Positions 11,821 to 30,900 of a stretch of 64,000 bases of DNA are shown one piece after another. The DNA lies in sequence record KX130863. One strand, written 5' to 3'. The translations under genes were made by a program, and so were the position numbers. The notes beneath the pieces are model-generated. The model was not told where the DNA came from. It saw only the letters and a program-made list of their open reading frames with translations, and did no database searches. Origin of the DNA: Shigella phage SHSML-45. Each line of letters opens with the position of its first letter. The first letter of the stretch is position 1.

Positions 11821-11896
11821 TGGTAGTTAGTAGTGGATTTGAACCACTGTAGTCGCTCCGTATGAAGGAGGTGCATAACCACTCTGCCAACTAACT
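11821..11896 (-). tRNA. tRNA, anticodon CAT (Met, fMet or Ile2)
   Basis: Hand fold: acceptor AGTTAGT/ACTAACT, anticodon loop TTCATAC, T-arm GGTTCAAATCC, encoded CCA. Confidence 0.6.
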
Positions 11897-11992
11897 ATTA
11901 TGTTTTACTAGGCTAAGTAAGTATTCTTTATACTCTTTAGACCAACTAGCTTTTTTAAACTTTCCTGGACGCATAGCCTTAATTCCTAGATT

Positions 11993-12069
11993 TGGTACTC
12001 CGGGAGGGATTTAAACCCCCGATCTCTCGGTTATCAGCCGAGTGCTTTAGATCGCTAAGCTACCGAAGC
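11993..12069 (-). tRNA. tRNA-Ile (GAT)
   Basis: Acceptor GCTTCGG, anticodon arm CTCGG-CTGATAA-CCGAG, encoded CCA. Confidence 0.7.
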
Positions 12070-12084
12070 ATTAAAATATTTACA

Positions 12085-12375
12085 TCACACACTGTCTAAG
12101 TAAGAAGTATAGTGGAATTTAGTTTCTCCAGTATTATCTACTTCTACCTCAGTTCGTGGTACTTGACGAACCACACCATGAATCATCTTATATCGGATGC
12201 CTCTAGCTGGTTCATGATCTTTTGGAAATACTTGTTTAACCGTCACTACTTTATATTCTTCACGCGGTGTTAGCACTACTACTTGATCACCCTCTTTGAT
12301 TTTCCAAGAAGATGGAAATTCATAGGTGTATCTTTGACCACCGGTAAGGAATATAACAGAAAGATAACGTTTCAT
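12085..12375 (-). CDS. hypothetical protein (96 aa)
   Basis: ORF between tRNA genes with its own promoter-like motif upstream. Confidence 0.4.
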   Translation of the reverse strand: MKRYLSVIFLTGGQRYTYEFPSSWKIKEGDQVVVLTPREEYKVVTVKQVFPKDHEPARGIRYKMIHGVVRQVPRTEVEVDNTGETKFHYTSYLDSV

Positions 12376-12452
12376 TTGGTTTCCCTCTCATTAATTTATA
12401 TAAATATTATAGCAATAAATAAGAGAGAAAGCAAATGAGTTTTTCTTGAAAT

Positions 12453-12527
12453 TGGTAGCGGGTTCCAGTACTGCCCTGGACTTACTTAGCTTATGAGACT
12501 AAGAAGAACTCTATGCCTCCCACCCGC
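12453..12527 (-). tRNA. tRNA-like, anticodon CAT, non-canonical T-loop
   Basis: Anticodon arm TTAGT-CTCATAA-GCTAA folds, but the T-loop (GGCAGTA) and acceptor pairing are imperfect. Confidence 0.35.
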
Positions 12528-12535
12528 AATTGTTT

Positions 12536-12660
12536 GGTCATTCTAGGCAGGACTCGAACCTGCTATCACTTGTGCGGACTTACGAGAACCATTCTTTCAC
12601 TCGAATCGAACGAGCTTCTGCCCTCGCCAAGTTGGTTTCCCCATCAACCACGCTAGAATG
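12536..12660 (-). ncRNA. tRNA-like or structured RNA region (two T-arm-like motifs)
   Basis: GCAGG-TTCGAGT-CCTGC and GCTCG-TTCGATT-CGAGT T-arm-like hairpins in an ORF-free stretch; I could not fold a complete cloverleaf by hand. Confidence 0.3.
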
Positions 12661-12781
12661 TTAGATTGTTTTCAGTGCAAGAGTCCGAGTCTTGGACACG
12701 ACCGCTTCGCAAGTACATAGGCAGCTTATCATGAGTCAGCACTTCCGAATTGCTAGCTCCGTGTTCTGCACTGAAATTCTG

Positions 12782-13129
12782 TTAGTTTAATCGTAAAGTA
12801 TTATCTACTTCACCATTAATTGTTCGGCATTCCTCTGGGATTGCCGGGGTGGCCTTGTATTCCCACCACTCAGCACCATCATATTCCCCACGTTCTAGCC
12901 AAGTTCCATCGGCAAACCATACATTACCATAAAGTAATTGTCCACCGTATCCAGAATCATATTCAAAGTCTAGGTTATTAAGAAAATCCTCAATGTATTC
13001 TTCTGTATAACCTAAAGGTAATACCCAAACTTTTTTATCCCCATAATACCCGAATTCTATTTTAATACACTTAACTTTAGAATTGGTATTTTTTAAGGCG
13101 AGTAACAGCTCTTCTTTAGCATTACGCAT
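12782..13129 (-). CDS. hypothetical protein (115 aa)
   Basis: ORF, W/Y-rich. Confidence 0.4.
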   Translation of the reverse strand: MRNAKEELLLALKNTNSKVKCIKIEFGYYGDKKVWVLPLGYTEEYIEDFLNNLDFEYDSGYGGQLLYGNVWFADGTWLERGEYDGAEWWEYKATPAIPEECRTINGEVDNTLRLN

Positions 13130-13153
13130 AGTATATTCTCATACTGAATTATT

Positions 13154-13231
13154 TTGGCGCGACCGATGGGATTTGAACCCACATTCCCTCCCGTGACAGG
13201 GGAGTACCATTACCAAGCCAGCCCCGGTCGC
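13154..13231 (-). tRNA. tRNA-Asp (GTC)
   Basis: Acceptor GCGACCG, anticodon arm CTCCC-CTGTCAC-GGGAG, T-arm GGTTCAAATCC, encoded CCA. Confidence 0.7.
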
Positions 13232-13240
13232 ATAATTTAT

Positions 13241-13426
13241 TTACTCAGCTTTGAGTTTTTCAATAGCTGCATTAAGTTCTTTAAGAAACTCTTTTCGTAC
13301 ATTAAGACGATTGAGACTTACTAGTATATCATGTTTAAGTTCTTCGATGTATTTCTTCTCAACTTCAATATTGTTGATAGTGCTATCACGATGAACTTCT
13401 AGCTGCGCAATCACATTCTTGGACAT
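13241..13426 (-). CDS. small coiled-coil protein (61 aa)
   Basis: ORF. Confidence 0.3.
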   Translation of the reverse strand: MSKNVIAQLEVHRDSTINNIEVEKKYIEELKHDILVSLNRLNVRKEFLKELNAAIEKLKAE

Positions 13427-13453
13427 GCTTGTTTCCTCAGTTATTAATGAAAA

Positions 13454-13526
13454 TGGTATCTGTGGCTGAATTCGATGTCAGCAATGATAGCTGGTTGGCT
13501 ACCGGTTTACTTAACTCTACACAGAA
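13454..13526 (-). tRNA. tRNA-like (anticodon unresolved)
   Basis: Canonical 3' half (GCTGA-CATCGAA-TCAGC T-arm, acceptor, CCA) but the anticodon arm folds with a 6-nt loop. Confidence 0.35.
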
Positions 13527-13528
13527 TT

Positions 13529-13611
13529 TGGCGGGCCGTGTAGGATTCGAACCTACGTTGTCTTTCGACACGGATTAACAATCCGCCGCCAAACCGCTTG
13601 GCTAACGACCC
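13529..13611 (-). tRNA. tRNA with anticodon GTT (Asn) and an extended variable arm
   Basis: Acceptor GGGTCGT/ACGGCCC, anticodon arm GCGGA-TTGTTAA-TCCGT, 13-nt variable region, T-arm GTAGG-TTCGAAT-CCTAC, CCA. Confidence 0.5.
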
Positions 13612-13763
13612 TAAATTTATATTGCTGACTAGGATTTTCACCTAGACGGAGTTAGCACCGTAGCGTGTAGCGGCATACCTCTCCAAACCGTGCCTCATCT
13701 TTCAATTACGGAGACAGTGTTCCTACGCGTGCCTGAATTGATTTAACAATTCTTTCAGCAAAT

Positions 13764-13839
13764 TGGACGACCGCATGAGATTTGAACTCACATAAAAAGG
13801 ATTTGCAATCCTTCGCCTAAGCCATTCAGCCAACGGTCG
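13764..13839 (-). tRNA. tRNA-Cys (GCA)
   Basis: Anticodon arm AAGGA-TTGCAAA-TCCTT, T-arm GGTTCAAATC, CCA. Confidence 0.7.
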
Positions 13840-14017
13840 ATCTATCTTGTTTTTCGAGATCTTCAAATTCTAGATCATTGAAGTTCCCTAGAGTACGGGT
13901 GTAGAACCTATCTCCTGAGTCATAGCCTGATTTACCACAATCATACATTTTAAATTCACGAAGAGGTGTGAAAATGTGTTCAGAACCACAACACTTAAAT
14001 CTAACTAATCGTTTCAT
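13826..14017 (-). CDS. small protein (63 aa)
   Basis: ORF; its 3' end overlaps the tRNA-Cys call, so one of the two is misplaced. Confidence 0.25.
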   Translation of the reverse strand: MKRLVRFKCCGSEHIFTPLREFKMYDCGKSGYDSGDRFYTRTLGNFNDLEFEDLEKQDRSTVG

Positions 14018-14066
14018 TAGCTTCTCCAGTTCAATTTATGTAATTATTATATAGAACTTTTGGAAA

Positions 14067-14345
14067 CTAAGCGACTACATTTTTTAAGAATTTGATGCCT
14101 TTCTTTTTCTTCTTATATTTCCACGTTAATGGATTTTGTCGATTATGAGCGCTTGAGATCTTTGTCTCGTCAAAGTTCTTCAATATCATGTAATCACAGG
14201 ATAATTGTTCTAGTGGAATGTGATCACCGTCAAAAGCGTATACATAAGGCTGTTGACTAGCACGATAATGATAGACTTTGTTAATTCTACGTTTCAGCGA
14301 CTTATCCGCGCAGTAAATAAAGAAGTTTTCAGGATGCATCAGCAT
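14067..14345 (-). CDS. hypothetical protein (92 aa)
   Basis: ORF. Confidence 0.4.
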   Translation of the reverse strand: MLMHPENFFIYCADKSLKRRINKVYHYRASQQPYVYAFDGDHIPLEQLSCDYMILKNFDETKISSAHNRQNPLTWKYKKKKKGIKFLKNVVA

Positions 14346-14356
14346 CTACTTCAATT

Positions 14357-14440
14357 TGGTGCATCGTGATGGATTTGAACCACCAACCCCGAAGGGCACG
14401 GATTTACAGACCGCTGCAATAGACATTCTGCCAACGATGC
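14357..14440 (-). tRNA. tRNA-Tyr (GTA), class II
   Basis: Anticodon loop CTGTAAA identical to E. coli tRNA-Tyr, long variable arm GCCCTTCGGGG, T-arm GGTGG-TTCAAAT-CCATC, CCA. Confidence 0.65.
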
Positions 14441-14568
14441 ACATTTAAAAGTATTCAAATACTAGTTTAAACACTTTTAAATATGTTTCCAAATTAGATA
14501 ACTATTATACCAAGTTTTAAGGCACTGAGCAAGTCAAATTTCGAAGAACTTGCTCAGTGCTGTATTAG

Positions 14569-14844
14569 TTAGTCGAACTTAGGAGTGACAGTTAAGGAGA
14601 ACGGAAGTTCAAAAACTTCTTCCCCCTCATTACTAACTGTAACTACACGACCTTTAAGTTCAGACATTAAAATATCAATATCAGCTTTTGCATCTGGAGC
14701 CATGCCAGCTTCAACACATTTAGCTTTAACTTCCGGAAGGAGTTCTACATCGTAGAAATAAAGCCATTCAATCTCACCTTCCCAGCCTTCCCAGGATTTA
14801 CAGATTGCACTTTCAATACCAGTTGCTATAACACGATTTTGCAT
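14569..14844 (-). CDS. hypothetical protein (91 aa)
   Basis: ORF. Confidence 0.4.
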   Translation of the reverse strand: MQNRVIATGIESAICKSWEGWEGEIEWLYFYDVELLPEVKAKCVEAGMAPDAKADIDILMSELKGRVVTVSNEGEEVFELPFSLTVTPKFD

Positions 14845-14934
14845 TCGTTAACTCCTTCATCAATTTATATAACTATTATATCAGAAATTTAAAGTAAAAG
14901 GCAAGTACATTTTTAAAAATTCTATTCGGAGGAG

Positions 14935-15141
14935 CTAAACTCCAGATTCTTCGGCCAAGTCTAGACTAATAAGAGTTATAGCCATAATTGCCGCACCATG
15001 TTCTTTTTCCCCGGTGTTTTTAGCAGAGTCTATAATATCCTTAATCTGTTCGTAATAACTTTTTACTTCTTGTTCAATACCTGCCTCGGCTATCATGCCT
15101 TTAGTCATGATTCGTTGCATAGTAATTTCACGGTTAGCCAT
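14935..15141 (-). CDS. hypothetical protein (68 aa)
   Basis: ORF; a possible unlisted 39-codon ORF (15133-15249) overlaps its start in an ATGGCTAA arrangement. Confidence 0.35.
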   Translation of the reverse strand: MANREITMQRIMTKGMIAEAGIEQEVKSYYEQIKDIIDSAKNTGEKEHGAAIMAITLISLDLAEESGV

Positions 15142-15316
15142 GATGTTTCTCCAGCTTCATTTTTAATAGTTTACAAATGAAGTCAACGTCTTCATCTGTG
15201 CCTAGATCTCTATCTTCAAGAGTTGCCTTGAAGTTTTTCGTTAGTTCCATAAGAACTACTTCTCTAGAACGACGTGTTGGCGGGGGTGGATGTCTATACA
15301 TCTTATTTCCTTAATT

Positions 15317-15391
15317 TGGTGGGTCGGAGGAGAATCTAACTCCTACTCGTTAGCTTATGAGGCCACCGCTTTAACTTTAAGCTACCGACCC
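15317..15391 (-). tRNA. tRNA, anticodon CAT (Met-type)
   Basis: Acceptor GGGTCGG/CCGACCC, anticodon loop CTCATAA, encoded CCA; T-loop is non-canonical (TTAGATT). Confidence 0.5.
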
Positions 15392-15397
15392 TATGTT

Positions 15398-15486
15398 TGG
15401 CGGAAGAAGGGGGAATCGAACCCACAAGGCTATATTTCAAACCGACAGATTAGCAATCTGCTGCAATACCGTTATGCTATTCTTCC
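15398..15486 (-). tRNA. tRNA-Ser (GCT), class II
   Basis: Acceptor GGAAGAA, anticodon arm GCAGA-TTGCTAA-TCTGT, long variable arm, T-arm TGGG-TTCGATT-CCCC, CCA. Confidence 0.7.
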
Positions 15487-15507
15487 GAATTTATAAGATA
15501 TATTATA

Positions 15508-16026
15508 TTAGAAATTTAGCTTCATGGCAAGAAAATTTTTCAAGTTTTCGGTAGACATCTCATCCACATCTATAGGAGAAACAAACCCATTTAATTGTCT
15601 AGCAAACTTTTCGCCAGCAGGATCATTATCCCCAACAGCTACCAATTTAAAAGGTAGTAATTTCAATTGCTTTAATAGCGGTTTTCCTGGAGAAGAACCC
15701 AACATTGCTAGAGCAGGATACCCAGCATTATGTAATGCTACAGCCTTAAATACAGATTCAGCAATTAATACTACTTTTTCATCCCCATTGAGAGTTTCTA
15801 GTCCCCATACACACTGTGTAGTAGAATAAGTAAAATATCTAGCTTCAAAGGGGCACTTACCATGACCTTTTGGAGCAGAAGGATTATAAGTCTGATAGCC
15901 TCTCAACATTCCAGAGAAGTCATACAATGGGACTGTTAGCCATCCTTCTGGGCTTAACCAGCAGTGATATTTATCTGTATCAAACCCTCTAGATAAGAGA
16001 TGTTCTGTTAGTTCATCAATAGTCAT
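15508..16026 (-). CDS. hypothetical protein with Toprim-like DxD segment
   Basis: KLVAVGDNDPAGEKFA resembles a Toprim acidic motif; start moved to the Met with GAGAGGAA SD (MTIDELTEHL). Confidence 0.4.
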   Translation of the reverse strand: MTIDELTEHLLSRGFDTDKYHCWLSPEGWLTVPLYDFSGMLRGYQTYNPSAPKGHGKCPFEARYFTYSTTQCVWGLETLNGDEKVVLIAESVFKAVALHNAGYPALAMLGSSPGKPLLKQLKLLPFKLVAVGDNDPAGEKFARQLNGFVSPIDVDEMSTENLKNFLAMKLNF

Positions 16027-16246
16027 ACTAGATTCCTCTCTCAAATTTATAAATATATTATGCAGAGAATTTAGCATTCAAGCAATTGAATTTTTTAACT
16101 TTTTAGAGGAAAATCACAGGATGCTTAAGGGTAGCAGGTAAGTGGGTAGACCCCAAAATTGTTATCCCCACTTGATTTTCAATGTGATATAGTGTAAAGT
16201 ATTTGTCATAGCTGAGTGACCAAAGAGACACACTTATCCTCTACCT

Positions 16247-16287
16247 TAAAACAGAAAAGCCCTGCGCTCTCCAGGGAACACAGGGCT
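16247..16287 (-). terminator. rho-independent terminator
   Basis: gccctg...cagggc stem followed on the minus transcript by UUUUCUGUUUU. Confidence 0.45.
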
Positions 16288-16311
16288 TACTTCGAATATT
16301 ACGTGTGGGAA

Positions 16312-17259
16312 TTACTTGTTACGCATATCCATAATCATCTGGCCATCGTAACCAGTGCCAACTACTGTTTGAGGTACACCGCCTTGATATTTCTGAGCAC
16401 GAATCATTTCAACTTCTAGTTGTTTCCAGCGAATCATCTCAGGAGTAATAGTACGTTGCAGAGCGGCGTTAGCTTCGGCTTCCTTCTTAGCTGCGTACAG
16501 TTTAGCATCTGCATCACGTTCGTTTGCAATAGCTTGGTTGTTACGAGCTTCACGATCTGCTTCTGCTTGTTTAACCTTCTGCTGTGCTTCTTGTTCAACA
16601 CGAGCCAACTCAGCTTTCGCAGCATTAACTTGTTCCTCACGAACTTTGGTATTCTGTACCTGTTCCACGATTACAGGCGGCAAAGTAATATCCTGAAGGA
16701 ACACTTGCTTAACTGTGTAACCATAAGGGCGTGCATACTCTTCAACTTCCTGTTGAATTGCGGTTTGTAATTGAGCCTGGATTTTAGCATCAAACAAATC
16801 TTGTGCTTTAGGAACAGACTTACCGAACTCACGAATAGTGGACAGTAATTTTTCAGTTACATATTTGTCTAATGCTTGATCCTGGGTACCTGCGTTAATA
16901 CGGTTAATCGGTGCCTTAGAACCATCAAACTGCAACATAACAGTCAGGTCAACAGTGGATTTAAACTTATCCTGACTAGGAACCTGAAGTTTATCTAATT
17001 TTACAGCAATGTCTTTTGTACTAAAAGTATCGAAAGATGCAAATGGGTTTACAAGATGAAAACCAGGTAATACAGGATTAGGGTCTACTTTACCCAGAAA
17101 TGTTTGGGTTTTAACCGTACCATCAGAAACAATAGTATATGAATTAAAAGCTAGGATTAAACCTGCTAAACCAACTACAGCACCAATACCCCAACGTTTA
17201 ATAGTGCGAATTACTTTTTGCTCAGAAGTCAGTTCTTTCATATTTTTAGTATTAAACAT
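16312..17259 (-). CDS. SPFH/band-7 (prohibitin/HflC-like) membrane protein
   Basis: N-terminal TM (GIGAVVGLAGLILAF), SPFH-like core, then an Ala/Glu/Gln-rich coiled coil (EQVNAAKAELARVEQEAQQKVKQAEADREARNNQAIA) as in HflK/HflC. Confidence 0.65.
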   Translation of the reverse strand: MFNTKNMKELTSEQKVIRTIKRWGIGAVVGLAGLILAFNSYTIVSDGTVKTQTFLGKVDPNPVLPGFHLVNPFASFDTFSTKDIAVKLDKLQVPSQDKFKSTVDLTVMLQFDGSKAPINRINAGTQDQALDKYVTEKLLSTIREFGKSVPKAQDLFDAKIQAQLQTAIQQEVEEYARPYGYTVKQVFLQDITLPPVIVEQVQNTKVREEQVNAAKAELARVEQEAQQKVKQAEADREARNNQAIANERDADAKLYAAKKEAEANAALQRTITPEMIRWKQLEVEMIRAQKYQGGVPQTVVGTGYDGQMIMDMRNK

Positions 17260-17270
17260 ATATTTCCTTA

Positions 17271-17471
17271 TTATTTAGAAGAGTTAGCTACTACAGTTAC
17301 TTTAGTTGCAGAAATAAACAGGCTAGCATCCACAGCAAATTCAGGAGCTTTGATATCTCCATTATGAAATATGACTATACCGGAGACTACTTCAAATGCT
17401 AGTGCTGTAACATCGGTGGTATTTACTTGTGAATGTTCACCTACTACTTTTACTATATATCGTGTTTTCAC
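17271..17471 (-). CDS. small protein (66 aa)
   Basis: ORF directly upstream of the SPFH gene. Confidence 0.35.
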   Translation of the reverse strand: MKTRYIVKVVGEHSQVNTTDVTALAFEVVSGIVIFHNGDIKAPEFAVDASLFISATKVTVVANSSK

Positions 17472-17497
17472 TTTATTTTCCTAGCAGTTAATAAAAT

Positions 17498-17572
17498 TGG
17501 CCGAGGTGACAGGATTCGAACCTGCATAAAGGAATTTAGAAGACTCCTGCCTCTCCCTTAGACTACACCCCG
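17498..17572 (-). tRNA. tRNA-Arg (TCT)
   Basis: Acceptor CGGGGTG/CACCTCG, anticodon arm GGAGT-CTTCTAA-ATTCC, T-arm GGTTCGAATCC, CCA. Confidence 0.7.
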
Positions 17573-18074
17573 TTTAAGTATTTTTAAGAACTCTCGTAAA
17601 AACTCTTAAAAATACAGACGATACCGGGAGAGTCATAAGTCTCACTCATTAAGTATTTCAAGACAAAATACAGTAACGTCTATTATTTTCCAGTTTAAGT
17701 CAAGGTGACTTAGTGGTTATGTCCTGCGGTATACTGAGGACTCGGTTAGGTTAGGGTCATGACTCCCCACCTTTTGCTGCTACTCAACAGGAGTTATCGC
17801 GAATTACCTGTGCTATTGTGCACCATTAGTGACATCTCTCATGTCAGCATTTCCCACTTTGTGGATAGCTTGAAAAACTACTCCGATATGGAGAAAGAAC
17901 TTCACTATCCTAGAATACCTTCTAAAGTTCTTCTTTAGCCTGGACATAGTTAAATCGTAATAAAACTATTCAGCAGACTGGTTGGTTAGTCTGGAACCAA
18001 CTACCGCGTGGTTTAGGCAGTGCGCAACTAACCTCGGAAGCTTTTACGTTAAAAGCACCAGTTATCCAGTTCTT

Positions 18075-18146
18075 ACCGACCGTAGGATTCGAACCTACAT
18101 CTTCCACCAGTTACGGCTTGATAATACCGTTTATACTAGATCGGCA
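18075..18146 (-). tRNA. tRNA-like (anticodon unresolved; CCA not encoded)
   Basis: Perfect T-arm GTAGG-TTCGAAT-CCTAC and acceptor GCCGATC/GGTCGGT (two G-U pairs); anticodon arm did not fold by hand. Confidence 0.4.
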
Positions 18147-25547: not shown

Positions 25548-26689
25548 AAGAAATCTCCAAATTCATTACCCAGATCTTTCAGAGTATCAGTAGAGGTTTC
25601 GGTGACTTGACCTACACGATATGCTGCACCAATCTGGATTTCTTGTGGAGCAGGCTGTAAAGAAGTGGTATCCAGCCAGTTCATGATCCACGGAATGGGG
25701 TTCTTGGTGATTACTGGTAAATGACTAGGCCATTCTACACCGATGTGCATAAATGCATTACGCCCCACAAAGTACAGATATTCTTCTAGAAGTTCTGCGT
25801 TCAAGCCAATCAGACTACGACCTTTGAAAATGAAATGACCCCATTCAATTTCAGTTTTCAGAGTTTTCAGGAGCTGTGCTGGTGCTTTAGCCACTGCTTC
25901 ATCCACCAGATCTTTGTCAAACTGCTGGAACATAATCTGGATGATTGCTTTAGACATCTGAGTGTGCAGAGCTTCATCTTTAGCGATTAATTGCAGATTT
26001 TTAGCAATACCTTGCAGAATATCGTTCTCTGCTAACGCAAAGGTACATGCAAAGGATGCATAGAACTGCATTGCTTCCAGACCGTAGATTGCAAAATAAG
26101 CGTCTAATAACTTAGCCTGGGTTTCACGTTTAACTTCAGGAAACTCTGTTTCTGGGTAAGTATTATCACCACGATGATCGCGTACTGCGATGAAATACTG
26201 ACCTAACTGGTATAGTTCATCGAACAGTTCAACAGAATCAGCGATACGTGCAAATGCTTCTTGGTTTTTAGTTACAGAATCAATAAATTCTGCTGGATCA
26301 GTCAGCACATTACGAATAATATTACTATATGCACGGCTATGCAGATCTTCGAAGTAGCTCCACTGCTTGAGCATACCTTCCAATTCTGGACGACTTACAA
26401 GTGGCATAATAGCTGCTTCAGGCGCTCGACTGATAAAGGAATCAGTTTGAGTCTGCCATGCTAAATTCAGAAGTGTAATTTCCTGAATTTCACGTGGGAG
26501 ATTAGGCCATTGTTTCTTATCTGCTTCCAGACTGATTTCAGTTTCAGTCCAAAATTGAGAGCGAGCTAATAACGCCAGCCTTTCTAGCTCTGGATGGGCT
26601 ACCCTTACATAGTCTGCAATACCAAGTGAATCACCCAGGAAAAGATCTGGATTAGTATGATCCCATTTTAAATTAAGTAAAGTTGTCAT
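25544..26689 (-). CDS. nrdB: ribonucleotide reductase small subunit (class Ia NrdB)
   Basis: 381 aa ferritin-like di-iron protein, adjacent to nrdA. Confidence 0.8.
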   Translation of the reverse strand: MTTLLNLKWDHTNPDLFLGDSLGIADYVRVAHPELERLALLARSQFWTETEISLEADKKQWPNLPREIQEITLLNLAWQTQTDSFISRAPEAAIMPLVSRPELEGMLKQWSYFEDLHSRAYSNIIRNVLTDPAEFIDSVTKNQEAFARIADSVELFDELYQLGQYFIAVRDHRGDNTYPETEFPEVKRETQAKLLDAYFAIYGLEAMQFYASFACTFALAENDILQGIAKNLQLIAKDEALHTQMSKAIIQIMFQQFDKDLVDEAVAKAPAQLLKTLKTEIEWGHFIFKGRSLIGLNAELLEEYLYFVGRNAFMHIGVEWPSHLPVITKNPIPWIMNWLDTTSLQPAPQEIQIGAAYRVGQVTETSTDTLKDLGNEFGDFL

Positions 26690-27213
26690 TAGTTCTCCTG
26701 TTTATCTGTGTTTCTAAGTAGTGTTGGGTCTTTGGTTATAGAGAGAATTAAAGAATCTCGATACTCTATCGCCTCTTCTAGAGTTGGGAGAGTTTTCACA
26801 TATTCTTTTCCGTTAATGTATTTTCTAACTTGAAATCCAGACCCTTTCTTCCGAATATTCTTAGTACCCAATATATTGTTTTTACTGGTTTTTCTATTTT
26901 GACTATTTAACTGCCAGTCTGCTTCTCTTAGATTAGTCCACTTATAGTTTAGTGAATCTCCATCTATATGGTCAACCATAATTTTAGGTAAGTTTCCTGT
27001 CATGTACAGGAAAGCAATATTTTGTGCGGGATACTTCTTACCCTTGATTTGTATTACTAAGTCTTTTCGGTTAGGATCTACTGAGTGTGGTTTTAAACAG
27101 CCAGCAGGTAGTCCTCTTACTTTATTATGTACTTCCTGGTTATTTAACCAAGTAAATGTTCCTTCATCTGGATTATACTCCAGAATCCTTTTTAATTCAT
27201 CTTGTGTTATCAA
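26689..27213 (-). CDS. HNH homing endonuclease
   Basis: MITQDELKRILEYNP...AQNIAFLYMTGNLPKIMVDHIDGDSLNYKWTNLRE; inserted between nrdA and nrdB. Confidence 0.8.
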   Translation of the reverse strand: MITQDELKRILEYNPDEGTFTWLNNQEVHNKVRGLPAGCLKPHSVDPNRKDLVIQIKGKKYPAQNIAFLYMTGNLPKIMVDHIDGDSLNYKWTNLREADWQLNSQNRKTSKNNILGTKNIRKKGSGFQVRKYINGKEYVKTLPTLEEAIEYRDSLILSITKDPTLLRNTDKQEN

Positions 27214-27315: not shown

Positions 27316-30300
27316 TTATAACTGACAGCCTCCTGATGCACAGCCTACTGCTTCTTCACCAGCTCCACCACCATTTTCAGTATTAAAATTAGCATAATAC
27401 CAAGTTTTTATACCATACTTAACAGCGATCATGAAGTCACGAACTACTACTGGGCCTGGAATGATTTCATTCTCGAATTTAGAGTAGTCATAATACGACT
27501 GGAAGCTTGAAGACTGATTCAGGAACTTCTGGTAAACAGCATTCCACTTAATATACTCTACCCTATCAATGTCATAAGCCAGTTTATAGCTCATTAATGT
27601 ATCCCAATCAGTTGCACCTGGAGCAATTGCAATTACTTTATTCACTGCACTACCCTTGATAGATACGATCTTACGGGGCGGTTCGATAGAGTTAGTAACA
27701 CCTAGCAGTACAGAGGAACTTTCACCTGGCATCTGAGCAGTCAGAACAGAGTTGCGCATACCATATTTCAGAATATCTGCACGCAGAGATTCCCAATCCA
27801 TTTCTAGACCTACAGTTACCAGTTCATCAACAGTTTTCTTGTACGTGTCGATTACCAGAGTTCCTTGCGAAGGCTTAGTACGATTAAACCAGTCACATGC
27901 ACCTTGTTCTTTAGCCAGACGTACAGAGGCTTTATGTAGGAAGTAGGACAGCTTTTCAGCTTCACGGTGAATCCAGTTACGGGCTTCAACACCTTCGTAA
28001 GCCAAACCTTCTGCTGCCATTGCACCTGCTGCGTTCATCAGACCAATACCAACGTTACGACGTTTCTTAGCCGTGTACTCCATAGTTGGGAATGGGTAAT
28101 CCTGAATCTCGATGATTGTATCAACGAATTTCAGAAGAATGTAGCAAGTTTTCTCCCATTCAGCCAGAGATTCCATACGACCTAGTACAACACCACCTAA
28201 GTTACACAGAGATACTTCACCAATATCTTCTGGACGCATATCGTCTAACTGATCTTGGGTCTTATACAGCTCCATAATGTGATGGAATGGACGGGTTGGC
28301 TGAGTAATTTCAACACAAAGGTTGGTCATACGAATCGGGTCAAGGAAGTTACCATGACGGTTAGATTCACCAATGTGATGAGCATACATACGCCCTGTTT
28401 CCATACGGATACGTAACCAAGTATCTAGGATTTCTTTTGCAGAGATTCTAGGAGCTGCTGGAATTGTTTTTCCTTCGTGGTCGATCTTTGTAAGAGAAGC
28501 CACACGTTTCTCCGCTGCCACGTAGATTTCTTCAAACTTAGCCTCATCTTCGCCATAAAACGCTTCATGAACTTCTGGTGCGTAGAAGTATGACATTAGC
28601 GTAATATCTTCATTTTTCAGATAACGTTTTAACAAAAGATTGTTGAAGCTCAGAGAATAATCCATCTTATCGATTTTATTCTCGTCTGTAGCACGTTGTT
28701 GCTTAACCTGCATCAACTGGATGATTTCAGGGTCAAAGTAAGGATAGGATACAGTAGCAGAACCACCACGGCTATTACCACAGACTATGGTATGCCCGTT
28801 ACGGCGCACTACTAACTTATTGGTGGGTACTTCCACACAATAAACTTTACCAATATACTCAACTTCAGTTTCCTTGATACCCTCTGCTGTCATATCTAGT
28901 TGGTCAAAATAGACATAGCAACGGTCTTTAGTGCTTGTATTTGAGCGTAATCCAGCAATTGCTGCTAGAGCCTGCACCACATGTTGTTGCCCTGCGTGGC
29001 TTGAGTATTCTCCAACATTTTCGGATTTCCAGTACCCATCCCACTCCATGATTTCTTTCAATGCTTCTTTCGCAGCATTAGATGTTAAATCCTTCTCTAG
29101 CAGGAAAGATAAGTCTTTCGAATAGTATAGCTGCCCATGCCCAATATGAATGGTAGTTACACCTTGTTCATTTAGCTTCTTAGAATATTTAAGACCTAAA
29201 TCATCTAGGATATGTACTAAACGATCTACCTTGCGTTGCTTTTTAAATCCGAAACGATACGCTCTACCTGTATTTGTTTCTACGATTGAACCATCAGCCT
29301 GCAATGCAATACGGAAGCGGTCTAGCATGGTGATAGTATCAGTACCATTTGTTTTCTGCGCTGAACCAAAATCTAGTGCATGGGTTCTTTTTGGTTGCCA
29401 ATCTTCTGCTAGGATTTTCTGATACCCAGGTTTACGTTGGATATTCTTATTATTATACGATACTTGACGGTATACCATAGTATGGTTAGGGGTTACTAGA
29501 AGATCTACCCCTCTTTTCTCGAAACGTAACATTGTACCTTCGTAATCATACTCGAACACATTAAGAGGTAATACCCATTCTAACCCCCTACTATCAGTAA
29601 TCTGAGCGACTAACTCATCTCCAGTAAGTTCTGAGAATAACTTCCAACCATTCTTAGTTAAGACTTCAGTATCCTCGGAGTAGCACTGTTGGGTATTTGC
29701 CTTTACTGAGCGGTCAATGTGTCGATAATATGGCAGTTTTCCGGAATGCGGGAATGCCCCATTTCGCACCGGATCAGCAATTGATCGGCTTTCAAGATGA
29801 TACCCGATTCCCGCTCTGGCTGCGACCATTTTGAAGACGATGTGCTCGGCTGTGTCGATTGAATCCAACGTGTCAGTGGAATCCACGAGGCAGCAACTAG
29901 CAAATCCACGGTCACTAGAACGCAAACCAACCAGTGGCGGCGTAGGAACGTTGATTTTGTGGAGCGACATTGCATTGTAGAGATCGATTGCATCTAGAAT
30001 TGTCCAGTTGGGTTGAGATAACATCGCCATTGCCATGCCCATATAGGCAAATTGCGGGGTTTCGTAAATTTCACCAGTGGCTATATTACGACGGGAATAT
30101 TTATCAAAGAACTGTTTCAGTCCACCACTAGTAAAAAGACGGTCACGATCGTGGTCTATAACCTGATTCAGAGCTTCAAATTGCTCATCGGTAATCCATG
30201 CACTCATGTCTTCCCATGCACCTACACTAACCATATGATCGTGGAAGAAGCGTAGAGAAGGTGGTTCGAAGGAATCATAAAGGCGTTTACGCATCTGCGC

Positions 30301-30618
30301 AAGACGTAATTCCTTTGCTGGCACGTCGTATGCTGGATTATCTTTAATAAGACTTTCGGCAGCTTTAATTAACGCATCCATCAGAGTATCGGAATCTACA
30401 ACCCCTTTAGGCAGAGTTTTTTGAGCAGCCATAGTAATGGCTGACCAACTTACATCAACTGTTTTGCAGCCATACTCTGCCCAACCATTGAGTTTTTCAG
30501 GAGCAAAGTCTTCTACAGTACCGTCACGTTTAATTACTTTTTCAATGCGATGGCTCATTTGGTTTTCCTTTTTATAGTTATCAGGATTTAGGAAATAGTT
30601 TACTTTATTCTCAGTCAT
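27316..30618 (-). CDS. nrdA: ribonucleotide reductase large subunit (class Ia NrdA) containing an intein
   Basis: Aligns by eye to E. coli NrdA over its length except for a ~304-aa insertion; product 1100 aa against ~760 expected; real start may be the second Met (MSHRIEK). Confidence 0.85.
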   Translation of the reverse strand: MTENKVNYFLNPDNYKKENQMSHRIEKVIKRDGTVEDFAPEKLNGWAEYGCKTVDVSWSAITMAAQKTLPKGVVDSDTLMDALIKAAESLIKDNPAYDVPAKELRLAQMRKRLYDSFEPPSLRFFHDHMVSVGAWEDMSAWITDEQFEALNQVIDHDRDRLFTSGGLKQFFDKYSRRNIATGEIYETPQFAYMGMAMAMLSQPNWTILDAIDLYNAMSLHKINVPTPPLVGLRSSDRGFASCCLVDSTDTLDSIDTAEHIVFKMVAARAGIGYHLESRSIADPVRNGAFPHSGKLPYYRHIDRSVKANTQQCYSEDTEVLTKNGWKLFSELTGDELVAQITDSRGLEWVLPLNVFEYDYEGTMLRFEKRGVDLLVTPNHTMVYRQVSYNNKNIQRKPGYQKILAEDWQPKRTHALDFGSAQKTNGTDTITMLDRFRIALQADGSIVETNTGRAYRFGFKKQRKVDRLVHILDDLGLKYSKKLNEQGVTTIHIGHGQLYYSKDLSFLLEKDLTSNAAKEALKEIMEWDGYWKSENVGEYSSHAGQQHVVQALAAIAGLRSNTSTKDRCYVYFDQLDMTAEGIKETEVEYIGKVYCVEVPTNKLVVRRNGHTIVCGNSRGGSATVSYPYFDPEIIQLMQVKQQRATDENKIDKMDYSLSFNNLLLKRYLKNEDITLMSYFYAPEVHEAFYGEDEAKFEEIYVAAEKRVASLTKIDHEGKTIPAAPRISAKEILDTWLRIRMETGRMYAHHIGESNRHGNFLDPIRMTNLCVEITQPTRPFHHIMELYKTQDQLDDMRPEDIGEVSLCNLGGVVLGRMESLAEWEKTCYILLKFVDTIIEIQDYPFPTMEYTAKKRRNVGIGLMNAAGAMAAEGLAYEGVEARNWIHREAEKLSYFLHKASVRLAKEQGACDWFNRTKPSQGTLVIDTYKKTVDELVTVGLEMDWESLRADILKYGMRNSVLTAQMPGESSSVLLGVTNSIEPPRKIVSIKGSAVNKVIAIAPGATDWDTLMSYKLAYDIDRVEYIKWNAVYQKFLNQSSSFQSYYDYSKFENEIIPGPVVVRDFMIAVKYGIKTWYYANFNTENGGGAGEEAVGCASGGCQL
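28774..29685 (-). mobile_element. intein in nrdA (aa 312-615) with LAGLIDADG-like endonuclease region
   Basis: Insertion begins CYSEDTEVLTKNGW (Cys1 plus block A-like) and ends VYCVEVPTNKLVVRRNGHTIVCGN followed by Ser+1; internal LQADGSIVE motif; flanking exteins align to NrdA ...VK/SRGGSATV. Confidence 0.65.
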
Positions 30619-30900
30619 TTGGCAAATAAAATTTCTGATAGAAAAGGCCCGAGTATTTTCATACCCAGGCCTCCTGTGTTGTCAGTCTAGTTTTTGGCCA
30701 CTTAAGTTCTCAGCAGAATATCTATTGAGGTACTTAGTTCATTATAATTGAAGGGCCGATTTGGATTTGAGGTTACAATTTTCCACGCTAGGGTAGTCTT
30801 AGGACTTTCTTCCCCTTCCTTACGTGTAATCATATTAGCAGCACTCAGTGAAGTACGATGTATTTTAGTTTTACGGTGTAGATGTACGACGTTTCCCATA

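What the first reader, a model, noticed from the sequence alone, without database searches (positions are those of the whole stretch)
27316..30618. Intein with endonuclease-like region in the RNR large subunit
The NrdA ORF is 1100 aa. By-eye alignment to E. coli NrdA is continuous except for ~304 aa (aa 312-615; nt 28774-29685). The insert starts with Cys (CYSEDTEVLTKNGW), ends ...HTIVCGN followed by Ser, and contains LQADGSIVE, LAGLIDADG-like. The terminal dipeptide is GN rather than the usual HN, which would be an atypical splice junction.
Basis: partly seen in the sequence, partly recalled or inferred. Interest (0 to 1): 0.6.

Follow-up and report, generated by a model that had tools for sequence, protein, structure and literature searches.

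The report
Known self-splicing intein in phage NrdA
The large subunit of this T5-like Salmonella phage's ribonucleotide reductase is interrupted by a real, mobile self-splicing protein element (an intein with a homing endonuclease), but this was already published for this very phage in 2015 and its odd-looking "GN" end is normal for its intein family.

Summary
The window is Salmonella phage Shivani. Its nrdA ORF (27316-30618, minus strand) carries a 912-nt, 304-codon in-frame insert (28774-29685) that is exactly absent from about 435 other T5-like nrdA genes.

The insert is a real intein. It has Cys1, a block B TxxH, a C-terminal Asn and Ser+1. The AlphaFold model (pLDDT 88) matches solved inteins that carry homing endonucleases, and it contains a two-motif LAGLIDADG endonuclease. 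Curated HMMs miss the single sequence, but a family profile reaches solved inteins (E 1e-12).

Relatives sit in unrelated phage proteins: ThyX, NrdD, primase, methylases, RNR beta and RDF. Nearly all end in Gly-Asn and have Cys at block F position 4. The "atypical" GN is therefore a family trait. A homologue with GN, the mycobacteriophage Bethlehem RDF intein, is known to splice fully.

The site is the specificity loop 2 of NrdA. Staphylococcus phages carry a 35%-identical intein at the same site. DNA comparisons show the intein moving independently of its flanks.

The Shivani genome announcement (2015) and the GenBank record already report this intein with the same boundaries (Cys292-Asn595). 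It is already known and of low interest.

The parts
27316..30618 (-). Maximal nrdA ORF (1100 aa). The probable CDS starts at 30558 (1080 aa): class Ia ribonucleotide reductase alpha subunit precursor.
Evidence: ORF list. Pfam Ribonuc_red_lgC 5e-110 and NCBIfam NrdE_NrdA 4e-168. Shine-Dalgarno sequence before 30558 only.
29686..30558 (-). N-extein (aa 1-291 of the 1080-aa CDS), ending ...SVKANTQQ.
   Evidence: Alignment with intein-free EscoHU1 NrdA and with E. coli R1.
28774..29685 (-). Intein, 304 aa (Cys1...Asn304): a HINT splicing domain split by a LAGLIDADG endonuclease domain.
   Evidence: Exact 912-nt indel against intein-free alleles. Translation. AF2 model with pLDDT 88. Foldseek top hits are the inteins TliVMA, PhoVMA, PI-SceI and PI-PfuI. 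The family profile hits solved inteins.
29656..29685 (-). Block A (CYSEDTEVLT), with the Cys1 nucleophile.
   Evidence: C1, T6, E7, L9 and T10 are invariant in 27 family members.
29473..29502 (-). Block B (LLVTPNHTMV), with Thr65 (B:7), His68 (B:10) and Met70 (B:12).
   Evidence: T65 and H68 are invariant. Weak match to NCBIfam intein_Nterm over residues 1-70.
28891..29370 (-). LAGLIDADG homing-endonuclease domain (about aa 106-265), with two alpha-beta-beta-alpha-beta-beta-alpha halves.
   Evidence: Secondary structure of the model. Foldseek hits to I-DmoI, I-SceI and I-Tsp061I. 8 of 15 family members hit Pfam LAGLIDADG_3. This copy alone scores E 0.15.
29278..29325 (-). LAGLIDADG motif 1 (LDRFRIALQADGSIVE), acidic residue Asp131.
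   Evidence: Helix 120-131 ends at the Asp. It aligns with the ...AEG/..GDG motif of relatives.
29026..29064 (-). LAGLIDADG motif 2 (ALKEIMEWDGYWK), acidic residue Asp216.
   Evidence: Helix 202-216 ends at the Asp. It aligns with the ..GDG motif of relatives.
28816..28848 (-). Block F (KVYCVEVPTNK), with Cys283 at position F:4 and no His at F:13.
   Evidence: C283 is invariant or nearly invariant in the family.
28774..28812 (-). Block G (VVRRNGHTIVCGN): Cys302 (G:5), Gly303 (penultimate, G:6), Asn304 (G:7).
   Evidence: N304 is invariant and G303 is conserved in at least 90% of the family.
28771..28773 (-). Ser+1 codon (AGC), the C-extein nucleophile. Intein-free alleles have Thr (ACC/ACT) here.
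27316..28773 (-). C-extein (SRGGSATV...GCQL plus stop), with the intact catalytic residues of class Ia RNR.
   Evidence: Alignment to E. coli R1. The residues equivalent to N437, C439, E441, C462, Y730, Y731, C754 and C759 are conserved.

Best explanation
This is a class 1 intein carrying a LAGLIDADG homing endonuclease, inserted in the specificity loop (loop 2) of the phage's class Ia ribonucleotide reductase alpha subunit.

Proposed mechanism. The gene is translated as a precursor of about 1080 aa.
1. The HINT domain folds.
2. Cys1 makes a thioester with Gln(-1).
3. Ser+1 takes over the N-extein.
4. Asn304 cyclises and releases the 304-aa intein.
5. An O-to-N shift joins ...NTQQ to SRGG..., restoring loop 2 and an active 776-aa NrdA.

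Asn cyclisation runs without the usual penultimate His, as it does throughout this intein family. The freed intein, or the precursor, acts as a site-specific endonuclease. In mixed infections it cuts intein-free nrdA at ...CAGCAA|ACYCGTGGT..., and repair copies the intein in together with a few tens of bases of flank.

Shown here: the exact insertion, the catalytic residues, the fold, family membership, purifying selection, and a separate evolutionary history of the intein and its flanks. Inferred: the splicing chemistry, endonuclease activity and the target site.
For: - **Identity of the window.** It is phage Shivani at 99.9% identity. The record and the genome announcement already call this an intein, Cys292-Asn595.
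- **Exact insertion.** A 912-nt in-frame insertion relative to intein-free alleles.
- **Catalytic residues.** Cys1, Thr65/His68 and Asn304 are invariant across 27 relatives, followed by Ser/Cys/Thr+1. These relatives lie in unrelated hosts: ThyX, NrdD, GTP cyclohydrolase I and VanY peptidases. Some are mini-inteins that lack the endonuclease.
- **Distribution in phages.** tblastn finds relatives in phage RNR alpha, RNR beta, DNA polymerase, primase, ThyX, methylases and terminase.
- **Structure.** AF2 model pLDDT 88, pTM 0.85. Foldseek gives TliVMA intein at E 9e-13, then PhoVMA, PI-SceI and PI-PfuI. The HINT part matches the AceL NrdHF intein (TM 0.80) and the endonuclease part matches I-DmoI and I-SceI.
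- **Family profiles against PDB.** TliVMA 1e-12, PI-PkoII 2e-10, AceL NrdHF 9e-9, Mja KlbA 1.5e-4.
- **Experimentally validated homologue.** The Bethlehem RDF intein aligns end to end (BLASTP 1e-9; hhalign 99.6%, E 1e-23). It ends TGN|S. It splices completely, and G316H slows it (PMC5050341).
- **Selection.** dN/dS is 0.076 between the Shivani and SP3 copies.
- **Mobility.** Shivani and RUS_R2 have identical inteins (0 of 912 differences) but 34 differences in the adjacent exteins, starting 24 nt upstream and 9 nt downstream. The SP3 exteins equal slur09 over +-300 nt except for 8 changes, 7 of them within about 16 nt upstream and 33 nt downstream of the junction.
- **Intact exteins.** The exteins keep all catalytic RNR residues.
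Against: - No experiment shows splicing or DNA cleavage for this copy.
- Curated models do not recognise the single sequence. There is no Pfam Hint or Intein hit. NCBIfam intein_Nterm scores 15.5 bits against a cut-off of 24.5, and LAGLIDADG_3 scores E 0.15.
- Both histidines that usually assist Asn cyclisation (G:6 and F:13) are missing in this copy.
- The endonuclease domain is shorter than in most relatives, with about 11 residues missing before motif 2. Its activity is therefore uncertain.
- T5-like phages also encode NrdD. Selection for a functional NrdA is therefore presumed rather than proven.
Confidence: 0.9

Rival explanations
1. Decaying or splicing-impaired intein. The Gly-Asn end and the loss of both helper histidines would mean the element no longer splices or splices poorly, leaving NrdA largely inactive. 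The phage would then rely on NrdD or the host RNR.
For: Penultimate Gly and no His at F:13. Sub-threshold scores against curated intein models. An anaerobic RNR gene lies nearby.
Against: GN is the family norm. Two characterised inteins with GN splice efficiently, and His substitution harms them. dN/dS is 0.076 in the intein. All catalytic intein and RNR residues are intact. The same intein is identical in three phage isolates.
Confidence: 0.06
2. Class-3-like or hybrid splicing. The conserved block F Cys283, rather than or as well as Cys1, attacks the N-terminal junction and forms a block F branched thioester, as in the related AceL NrdHF intein.
For: Cys at F:4 is nearly invariant in the family. 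The closest solved HINT relative by sequence and fold is AceL NrdHF, a proven class 3 intein. It shares Met at B:12, Cys at F:4, a Pro four residues after that Cys, penultimate Gly, and lacks both histidines.
Against: Cys1 is invariant in all 27 aligned relatives, which argues that it is used. Class 3 is defined by the lack of an N-terminal nucleophile. Trp at B:12 and Thr at G:5 are absent here, where the residues are Met and Cys. Cys is the second most common residue at F:4 among inteins generally.
Confidence: 0.1
3. A native lineage-specific insertion domain of NrdA, or a group I intron or other DNA-level element that merely happens to be open in frame.
For: None beyond the bare presence of an insert. 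Group I introns are common in phage nrd genes.
Against: The insert is absent from NrdA proteins that are 97% identical. Its homologues are embedded in unrelated proteins with the same termini. It has a HINT plus LAGLIDADG fold. There is no Rfam intron hit in the window. The 304-codon frame is uninterrupted and under purifying selection.
Confidence: 0.01

Closest known systems
The same element as published: Shivani NrdA intein (Genome Announc 2015, PMC4342426; GenBank KP143763 CDS AJA73533.1)
   Same: The sequence is identical and the boundaries are identical, Cys292-Asn595 of the 1080-aa CDS.
   Different: Nothing differs. The publication gives only the boundaries, with no family, structural, site or mobility analysis.
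Intein in the NrdE (RNR alpha) of Staphylococcus Silviavirus phages Romulus, Remus and Stau2
   Same: 35% identity over all 304 aa. It sits at the same loop-2 site (ISQG|C...VCGN|STRRG). Both LAGLIDADG motifs correspond (motif 1 is LVALQADGSII), the block F match is near-identical (VYCVEVPTHK against VYCVEVPTNK), and it has the same GN|S end.
   Different: The host enzyme is class Ib-like NrdE in a Gram-positive phage. That gene is further broken up by free-standing endonuclease genes.
Mycobacteriophage Bethlehem RDF (gp51/gp52 phosphoesterase) intein
   Same: Homologous end to end (hhalign 99.6%, E 1e-23). It has Cys1, Cys at F:4 (VWCLRVPNG), penultimate Gly and Ser+1, and carries a LAGLIDADG endonuclease. 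It is experimentally splicing-competent.
   Different: Only 21% identical. It has a different host protein and site, and Thr rather than Cys at G:5.
AceL NrdHF split intein (PDB 6zgq; PMC7891396)
   Same: It is the closest solved HINT domain by sequence (family profile E 4e-8) and a close fold match (TM 0.80). It shares block B (V/L)(S/T)PNHxM, Cys at F:4, Pro four residues later, a G-N terminus and the absence of both helper histidines.
   Different: It has Ala1 and a proven class 3 mechanism. It is naturally split and has no endonuclease domain. It has Thr at G:5 and sits in an RNR beta-type gene.
Classical LAGLIDADG inteins PI-SceI, PI-PfuI, and the Tli and Pho VMA inteins
   Same: The same two-domain architecture and fold (Foldseek E 1e-7 to 9e-13; family profile E 1e-12 to 7e-7).
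   Different: About 10-14% identity. They have the canonical His-Asn terminus and larger endonuclease and DNA-recognition regions.

Membership tests
Intein (class 1) | In-frame insertion in a conserved host protein that is absent from close orthologues. | tested here: met
   Exact 304-codon indel against EscoHU1 and five further intein-free alleles; the other partial-coverage records listed also cover 72% of the query.
Intein (class 1) | Cys or Ser nucleophile at intein position 1. | tested here: met
   Cys1, invariant in 27 relatives.
Intein (class 1) | Block B Thr (B:7) and His (B:10). | tested here: met
   T65 and H68 in LLVTPNH, both invariant.
Intein (class 1) | C-terminal Asn followed by Ser, Thr or Cys at +1. 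| tested here: met
   Asn304 then Ser. N304 is invariant, and the relatives have S, C or T at +1.
Intein (class 1) | Penultimate His (G:6). This is usual but not obligatory. | tested here: not met
   Gly303. Gly is the family norm, and characterised inteins with Gly here do splice.
Intein (class 1) | HINT fold. | tested here: met
   AF2 model with pLDDT 88. Foldseek hits to solved inteins at E down to 9e-13, and AceL NrdHF at TM 0.80.
Intein (class 1) | Match to curated intein sequence models. | tested here: inconclusive
   The single sequence has no Pfam hit and scores 15.5 bits on TIGR01445 against a 24.5 cut-off. Family profiles reach solved inteins at E 1e-12 and 4e-8, and 4 of 15 members hit Pfam Intein_splicing.
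Intein (class 1) | Protein splicing actually occurs. | not testable with these tools
   It needs expression followed by SDS-PAGE or mass spectrometry. Supported only indirectly, by purifying selection and a spliced homologue.
LAGLIDADG homing endonuclease (double-motif) | Two LAGLIDADG helices, each ending in an acidic residue, within an alpha-beta-beta-alpha-beta-beta-alpha repeat. | tested here: met
   Helices 120-131 (..ALQAD131G) and 202-216 (..MEWD216G), each followed by beta hairpins. Fold hits to I-DmoI and I-SceI. Pfam LAGLIDADG_3 scores only E 0.15 for this copy, but 8 of 15 relatives pass.
LAGLIDADG homing endonuclease (double-motif) | Site-specific cleavage of the intein-free allele, and homing. 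| not testable with these tools
   Indirect evidence only. The intein is identical in Shivani and RUS_R2 while the flanks differ. There is a short shared flank tract in two nrdA backgrounds. It is present in 4 distinct phages (6 records) of the 445 matching records.
Class 3 intein | No Cys or Ser nucleophile at position 1. | tested here: not met
   Cys1 is present and invariant. Definition taken from PMC7891396.
Class 3 intein | WCT triplet: Trp at B:12, Cys at F:4, Thr at G:5. | tested here: not met
   The residues are Met70, Cys283 and Cys302, so only the Cys is present. AceL NrdHF shows that MCT can still be class 3.

The most novel reading that the evidence does not exclude
This phage intein family keeps both a Cys1 and a near-invariant block F Cys. 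In Shivani there is also a third Cys, at G:5, beside the active site. Its nearest solved relative is the atypical class 3 AceL NrdHF intein. The family could therefore be a living intermediate between class 1 and class 3 inteins: able to splice through a block F branched thioester, or gated by a disulfide among these cysteines, which would tie maturation of an aerobic RNR to redox state.
Probability: 0.1. Interest if true: 0.5.

Novelty: already known. Interest (0 to 1): 0.12.

Why it matters
It matters little for discovery. [quoted passage not shown] This one was reported with the same boundaries in 2015.

The checks add modest value:
- They show that the Gly-Asn terminus and the block F Cys are conserved hallmarks of a large, phage-borne intein family that standard Pfam and NCBIfam models largely miss.
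- They place the insertion inside the allosteric specificity loop of NrdA, at a site shared with Staphylococcus phage NrdE.
- They give sequence evidence that the element is still moving among T5-like phages, which include therapeutic phage isolates.

The compact 304-aa intein and its mini-intein relatives could interest protein engineers looking for His-independent splicing domains.

Tried and rejected
- **Direct Pfam scan.** Scanning the whole protein and the insert alone gave no Hint or Intein hit. NCBIfam gave only a sub-threshold intein_Nterm match.
- **Single-sequence PDB search.** It gave only a weak hit (E 0.19) to AceL NrdHF. Family profiles were needed.
- **Alignment to AceL NrdHF.** HMMER aligned only the N-terminal half. 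The C-terminal resemblance (Cys, then Pro four residues later, then ...G-N) rests on residue numbers quoted in PMC7891396, not on an alignment made here.
- **Large protein search.** It returned only hosts of 530 aa or less, and neither Shivani NrdA itself nor other RNR-hosted copies. Those came from tblastn against phage genomes instead.
- **Literature.** Tori and Perler 2011, on class 3 inteins that retain Cys1, is not held, so that precedent is not cited as evidence.
- **Divergence of the last 39 intein codons.** Jukes-Cantor dS between Shivani and SP3 was saturated and the first script failed. Mismatch counts per 60 nt were used instead.
- **Active-site geometry.** Model coordinates are not exposed to scripts, so distances among Cys1, Cys283, Cys302 and Asn304 could not be measured.
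- **Rejected readings.** Native NrdA domain, group I intron (no Rfam hit), bacterial intein-like domain, and class 3 membership.
Full report
**1. What is there**

The window is Salmonella phage Shivani, a T5-like Tequintavirus. The nrdA region matches KP143763 at 99.9% over its full length. It is a class Ia ribonucleotide reductase alpha subunit (Pfam Ribonuc_red_lgC 5e-110; NCBIfam NrdE_NrdA 4e-168).

The real start is probably the ATG at 30558, giving 1080 aa. That ATG has an AAGGA Shine-Dalgarno sequence upstream and matches the N-terminus of E. coli NrdA. The ATG at 30618 has no Shine-Dalgarno sequence.

**2. The insert is exact**

Alignment with NrdA of the intein-free phage EscoHU1 (97% identity in the shared parts) leaves one gap of exactly 304 residues. 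It lies between ...SVKANTQQ and (S/T)RGGSATV. At the DNA level this is 912 nt, window 28774-29685.

Of 445 phage records matching the gene, only 6 cover at least 80% of it: Shivani twice, vB_SLGBLB0002, vB_Sen_SG_WM_RUS_R2, and SP3 twice. The others cover only part of the query; every such record listed covers 72% of it, which is the gene minus the insert.

**3. It is an intein**

Curated models barely see the single sequence:
- There is no Pfam Hint or Intein hit.
- LAGLIDADG_3 scores E 0.15.
- NCBIfam intein_Nterm scores 15.5 bits against a cut-off of 24.5.

Three other lines of evidence settle the question.

(a) *Relatives in unrelated hosts.* A search with the insert alone found 41 relatives embedded in unrelated host proteins: ThyX, NrdD, GTP cyclohydrolase I, VanY-type peptidases, a DNA methylase and a head-morphogenesis protein.
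- The relatives complete at that end begin C[YF][DS]xxTE[VI]LT, and almost all of those complete at the other end finish with VRRNGKxxx[CS]GN followed by S, C or T.
- Three are mini-inteins of 156-163 aa with no endonuclease domain.
- In an alignment of 27 members, the invariant residues are C1, T65 (block B:7), H68 (B:10), G297 and N304. C283 (block F:4) and G303 (the penultimate residue) are at least 90% conserved.

(b) *Structure.* An AlphaFold2 model built on that alignment is confident (mean pLDDT 88, pTM 0.85). Foldseek against the PDB gives the following:
- Top hits are the endonuclease-bearing inteins TliVMA (E 9e-13), PhoVMA, PI-SceI, PI-PfuI and PI-PkoII.
- The splicing domain alone matches the AceL NrdHF intein (target TM 0.80).
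- The middle domain matches the LAGLIDADG enzymes I-DmoI, I-SceI and I-Tsp061I.

(c) *Family profiles.* These reach solved inteins by sequence:
- Whole-intein profile: TliVMA 1.3e-12, PI-PkoII 1.8e-10, AceL NrdHF 9e-9, PI-SceI 7e-7.
- Splicing-domain-only profile: AceL NrdHF 3.7e-8, Mja KlbA 1.5e-4.
- Of 15 members, 8 hit Pfam LAGLIDADG_3 and 4 hit Intein_splicing.

No Rfam family other than tRNA matches the window, so a group I intron is not the explanation.

**4. The endonuclease domain**

Residues about 106-265 form two alpha-beta-beta-alpha-beta-beta-alpha halves. The two LAGLIDADG helices are 120-131 (LDRFRIALQAD131G) and 202-216 (AKEALKEIMEWD216G). Each ends in the expected acidic residue.

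The domain is compact. It lacks about 11 residues that most relatives have before motif 2. Whether it is active cannot be told from sequence.

**5. The Gly-Asn end is a family trait**

Nearly every relative ends in GN; one ends in QN. Shivani also lacks the block F:13 His that many members have (PTNK against PNH).

Published work covers this case:
- Phage class 1 inteins often lack the penultimate His (PMC5050341).
- The mycobacteriophage Bethlehem RDF intein has a penultimate Gly and splices to completion. Its G316H mutant accumulates precursor (PMC5050341).
- I retrieved that intein (residues 95-411 of the Bethlehem phosphoesterase...VWCLRVPNG...HLTGN|S). It is homologous to the Shivani intein from end to end (BLASTP 1e-9, hhalign 99.6% and E 1e-23).
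- The AceL NrdHF intein also ends G145-N146 and lacks both histidines, and its G145H mutant is dead (PMC7891396).
- Cys is the second most common residue at F:4 among inteins (PMC4031507).

**6. Mechanistic class**

Cys1 is invariant, so class 1 is the default reading.

The kinship with AceL NrdHF keeps a class-3-like or hybrid route open. AceL NrdHF is a proven class 3 intein, and it shares Met at B:12, Cys at F:4, a Pro four residues later, and the G-N end. I rate this route at about 10%.

By the published definition (no N-terminal Cys, plus a WCT triplet) this intein is not class 3. It has Cys1 and an M-C-C triplet.

**7. Where it sits in NrdA**

Aligning the spliced sequence to E. coli R1 places the junction between the residues equivalent to G295 and G296. 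That is between Q294 and R298.

Ser293, Q294 and R298 belong to the specificity loop (loop 2), which reads the allosteric effector and contacts the substrate (bioRxiv 10.1101/2021.07.31.454598). An unspliced precursor should therefore be inactive (inference).

The exteins keep the residues equivalent to C225, N437, C439, E441, C462, Y730, Y731, C754 and C759.

Staphylococcus Silviavirus phages (Romulus, Remus, Stau2 and others) carry a 35%-identical intein at the same point of their NrdE: ISQG|CYDDKTEILT...HKLVVRRKGHTLVCGN|STRRG. This is therefore an allelic intein of a shared RNR site.

**8. Evidence of mobility and selection**

- *Shared junction codons.* Intein-bearing alleles share CAACAG|AGY at the junction, whereas intein-free alleles have CAGCAA|ACY (Thr+1).
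- *Short co-converted tract.* The SP3 exteins are identical to those of the intein-free phage slur09 over +-300 nt, except for 8 changes. Seven of these lie within about 16 nt upstream and 33 nt downstream of the junction. This looks like a short co-conversion tract.
- *Intein and flanks have separate histories.* Shivani and RUS_R2 have identical inteins (0 of 912 differences) but 34 extein differences. These begin 24 nt before the intein and 9 nt after it.
- *Purifying selection.* Between Shivani and SP3 the intein has dN/dS 0.076.

Together these indicate a functional protein and recent transfer between nrdA backgrounds, most simply by endonuclease-driven homing (inference).

**9. Novelty**

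The Shivani genome announcement states that the RNR alpha subunit "is interrupted by an intein" with boundaries Cys292 and Asn595 (PMC4342426).

Inteins in RNR are abundant, and LAGLIDADG inteins in phage nrdA are repeatedly reported. The finding is real and correctly interpreted, but already known. The GN terminus is ordinary for this family.

Noticed in passing
window 26689-27213 (-): A 174-aa free-standing HNH homing endonuclease gene (Pfam HNH_3, 1.2e-7) sits between nrdA and nrdB. Its end abuts the nrdB start. It is present in Shivani and RUS_R2 but absent from EscoHU1 and SP3, where the gap is about 106 nt. The nrdAB locus therefore holds a second, independent selfish element, reminiscent of mobE in T4.
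   Followed up: partly
L003 (phage SP3) nrdA, aa 748-1087 of its 1422-aa CDS: SP3 carries the same loop-2 intein (93% aa identity) and also a second, unrelated 340-aa LAGLIDADG intein (Pfam LAGLIDADG_3, 2e-13). The second one is inserted directly before the catalytic Cys (RMTNL|C...ILAGN|CVEITQ) and also ends Gly-Asn.
   Followed up: partly
window 28774-29685 compared with L003: Divergence between the Shivani and SP3 intein copies is mosaic. The endonuclease core is about 96% identical at the DNA level (0-4 mismatches per 60 nt). The parts coding for the two splicing-domain ends differ by 10-12 per 60 nt, almost all synonymous, which is more than the neighbouring exteins. This suggests recombination inside the intein between old alleles.
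   Followed up: partly
L004 (Staphylococcus phage Romulus) 2057-5950: The Romulus RNR alpha gene is in pieces. The intein-bearing first part stops right after the catalytic NLC motif (...NNSNLCKNLHL*). A 160-aa ORF annotated as a homing endonuclease follows, then further RNR-like sequence and an HNH endonuclease gene. The break is at the same NLC site where SP3 has its second intein.
   Followed up: no
window 30559-30680 (-): A 15-codon upstream ORF (MKILGPFLSEILFAK) has a strong AGGAGG Shine-Dalgarno sequence and ends in an ATGA overlap with the first ATG of the 1100-aa ORF. In EscoHU1 the equivalent sequence is fused in frame to nrdA and is annotated as its start. Start-codon annotation of nrdA is inconsistent among T5-like genomes.
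   Followed up: partly
window 11824-18145 (-): Ten tRNA genes lie on the minus strand, the T5-type tRNA cluster.
   Followed up: no
L010 (Mycobacterium phage Switzer) 565-2106: The primase/TOPRIM gene (annotated 'PhoH-like') holds a family member with Cys1, VYCVSVP and a ...SVTGN|C end. Product names over these intein-bearing genes are inconsistent in public records: PhoH-like, DNA primase, hypothetical, or 'hint domain protein'.
   Followed up: no
(database behaviour): The large protein search with the 304-aa intein returned only proteins of 530 aa or less. It returned neither the Shivani NrdA itself nor any RNR-hosted relative, although tblastn found many of these in phage genomes. Long host proteins seem to be missed by that search.
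   Followed up: no
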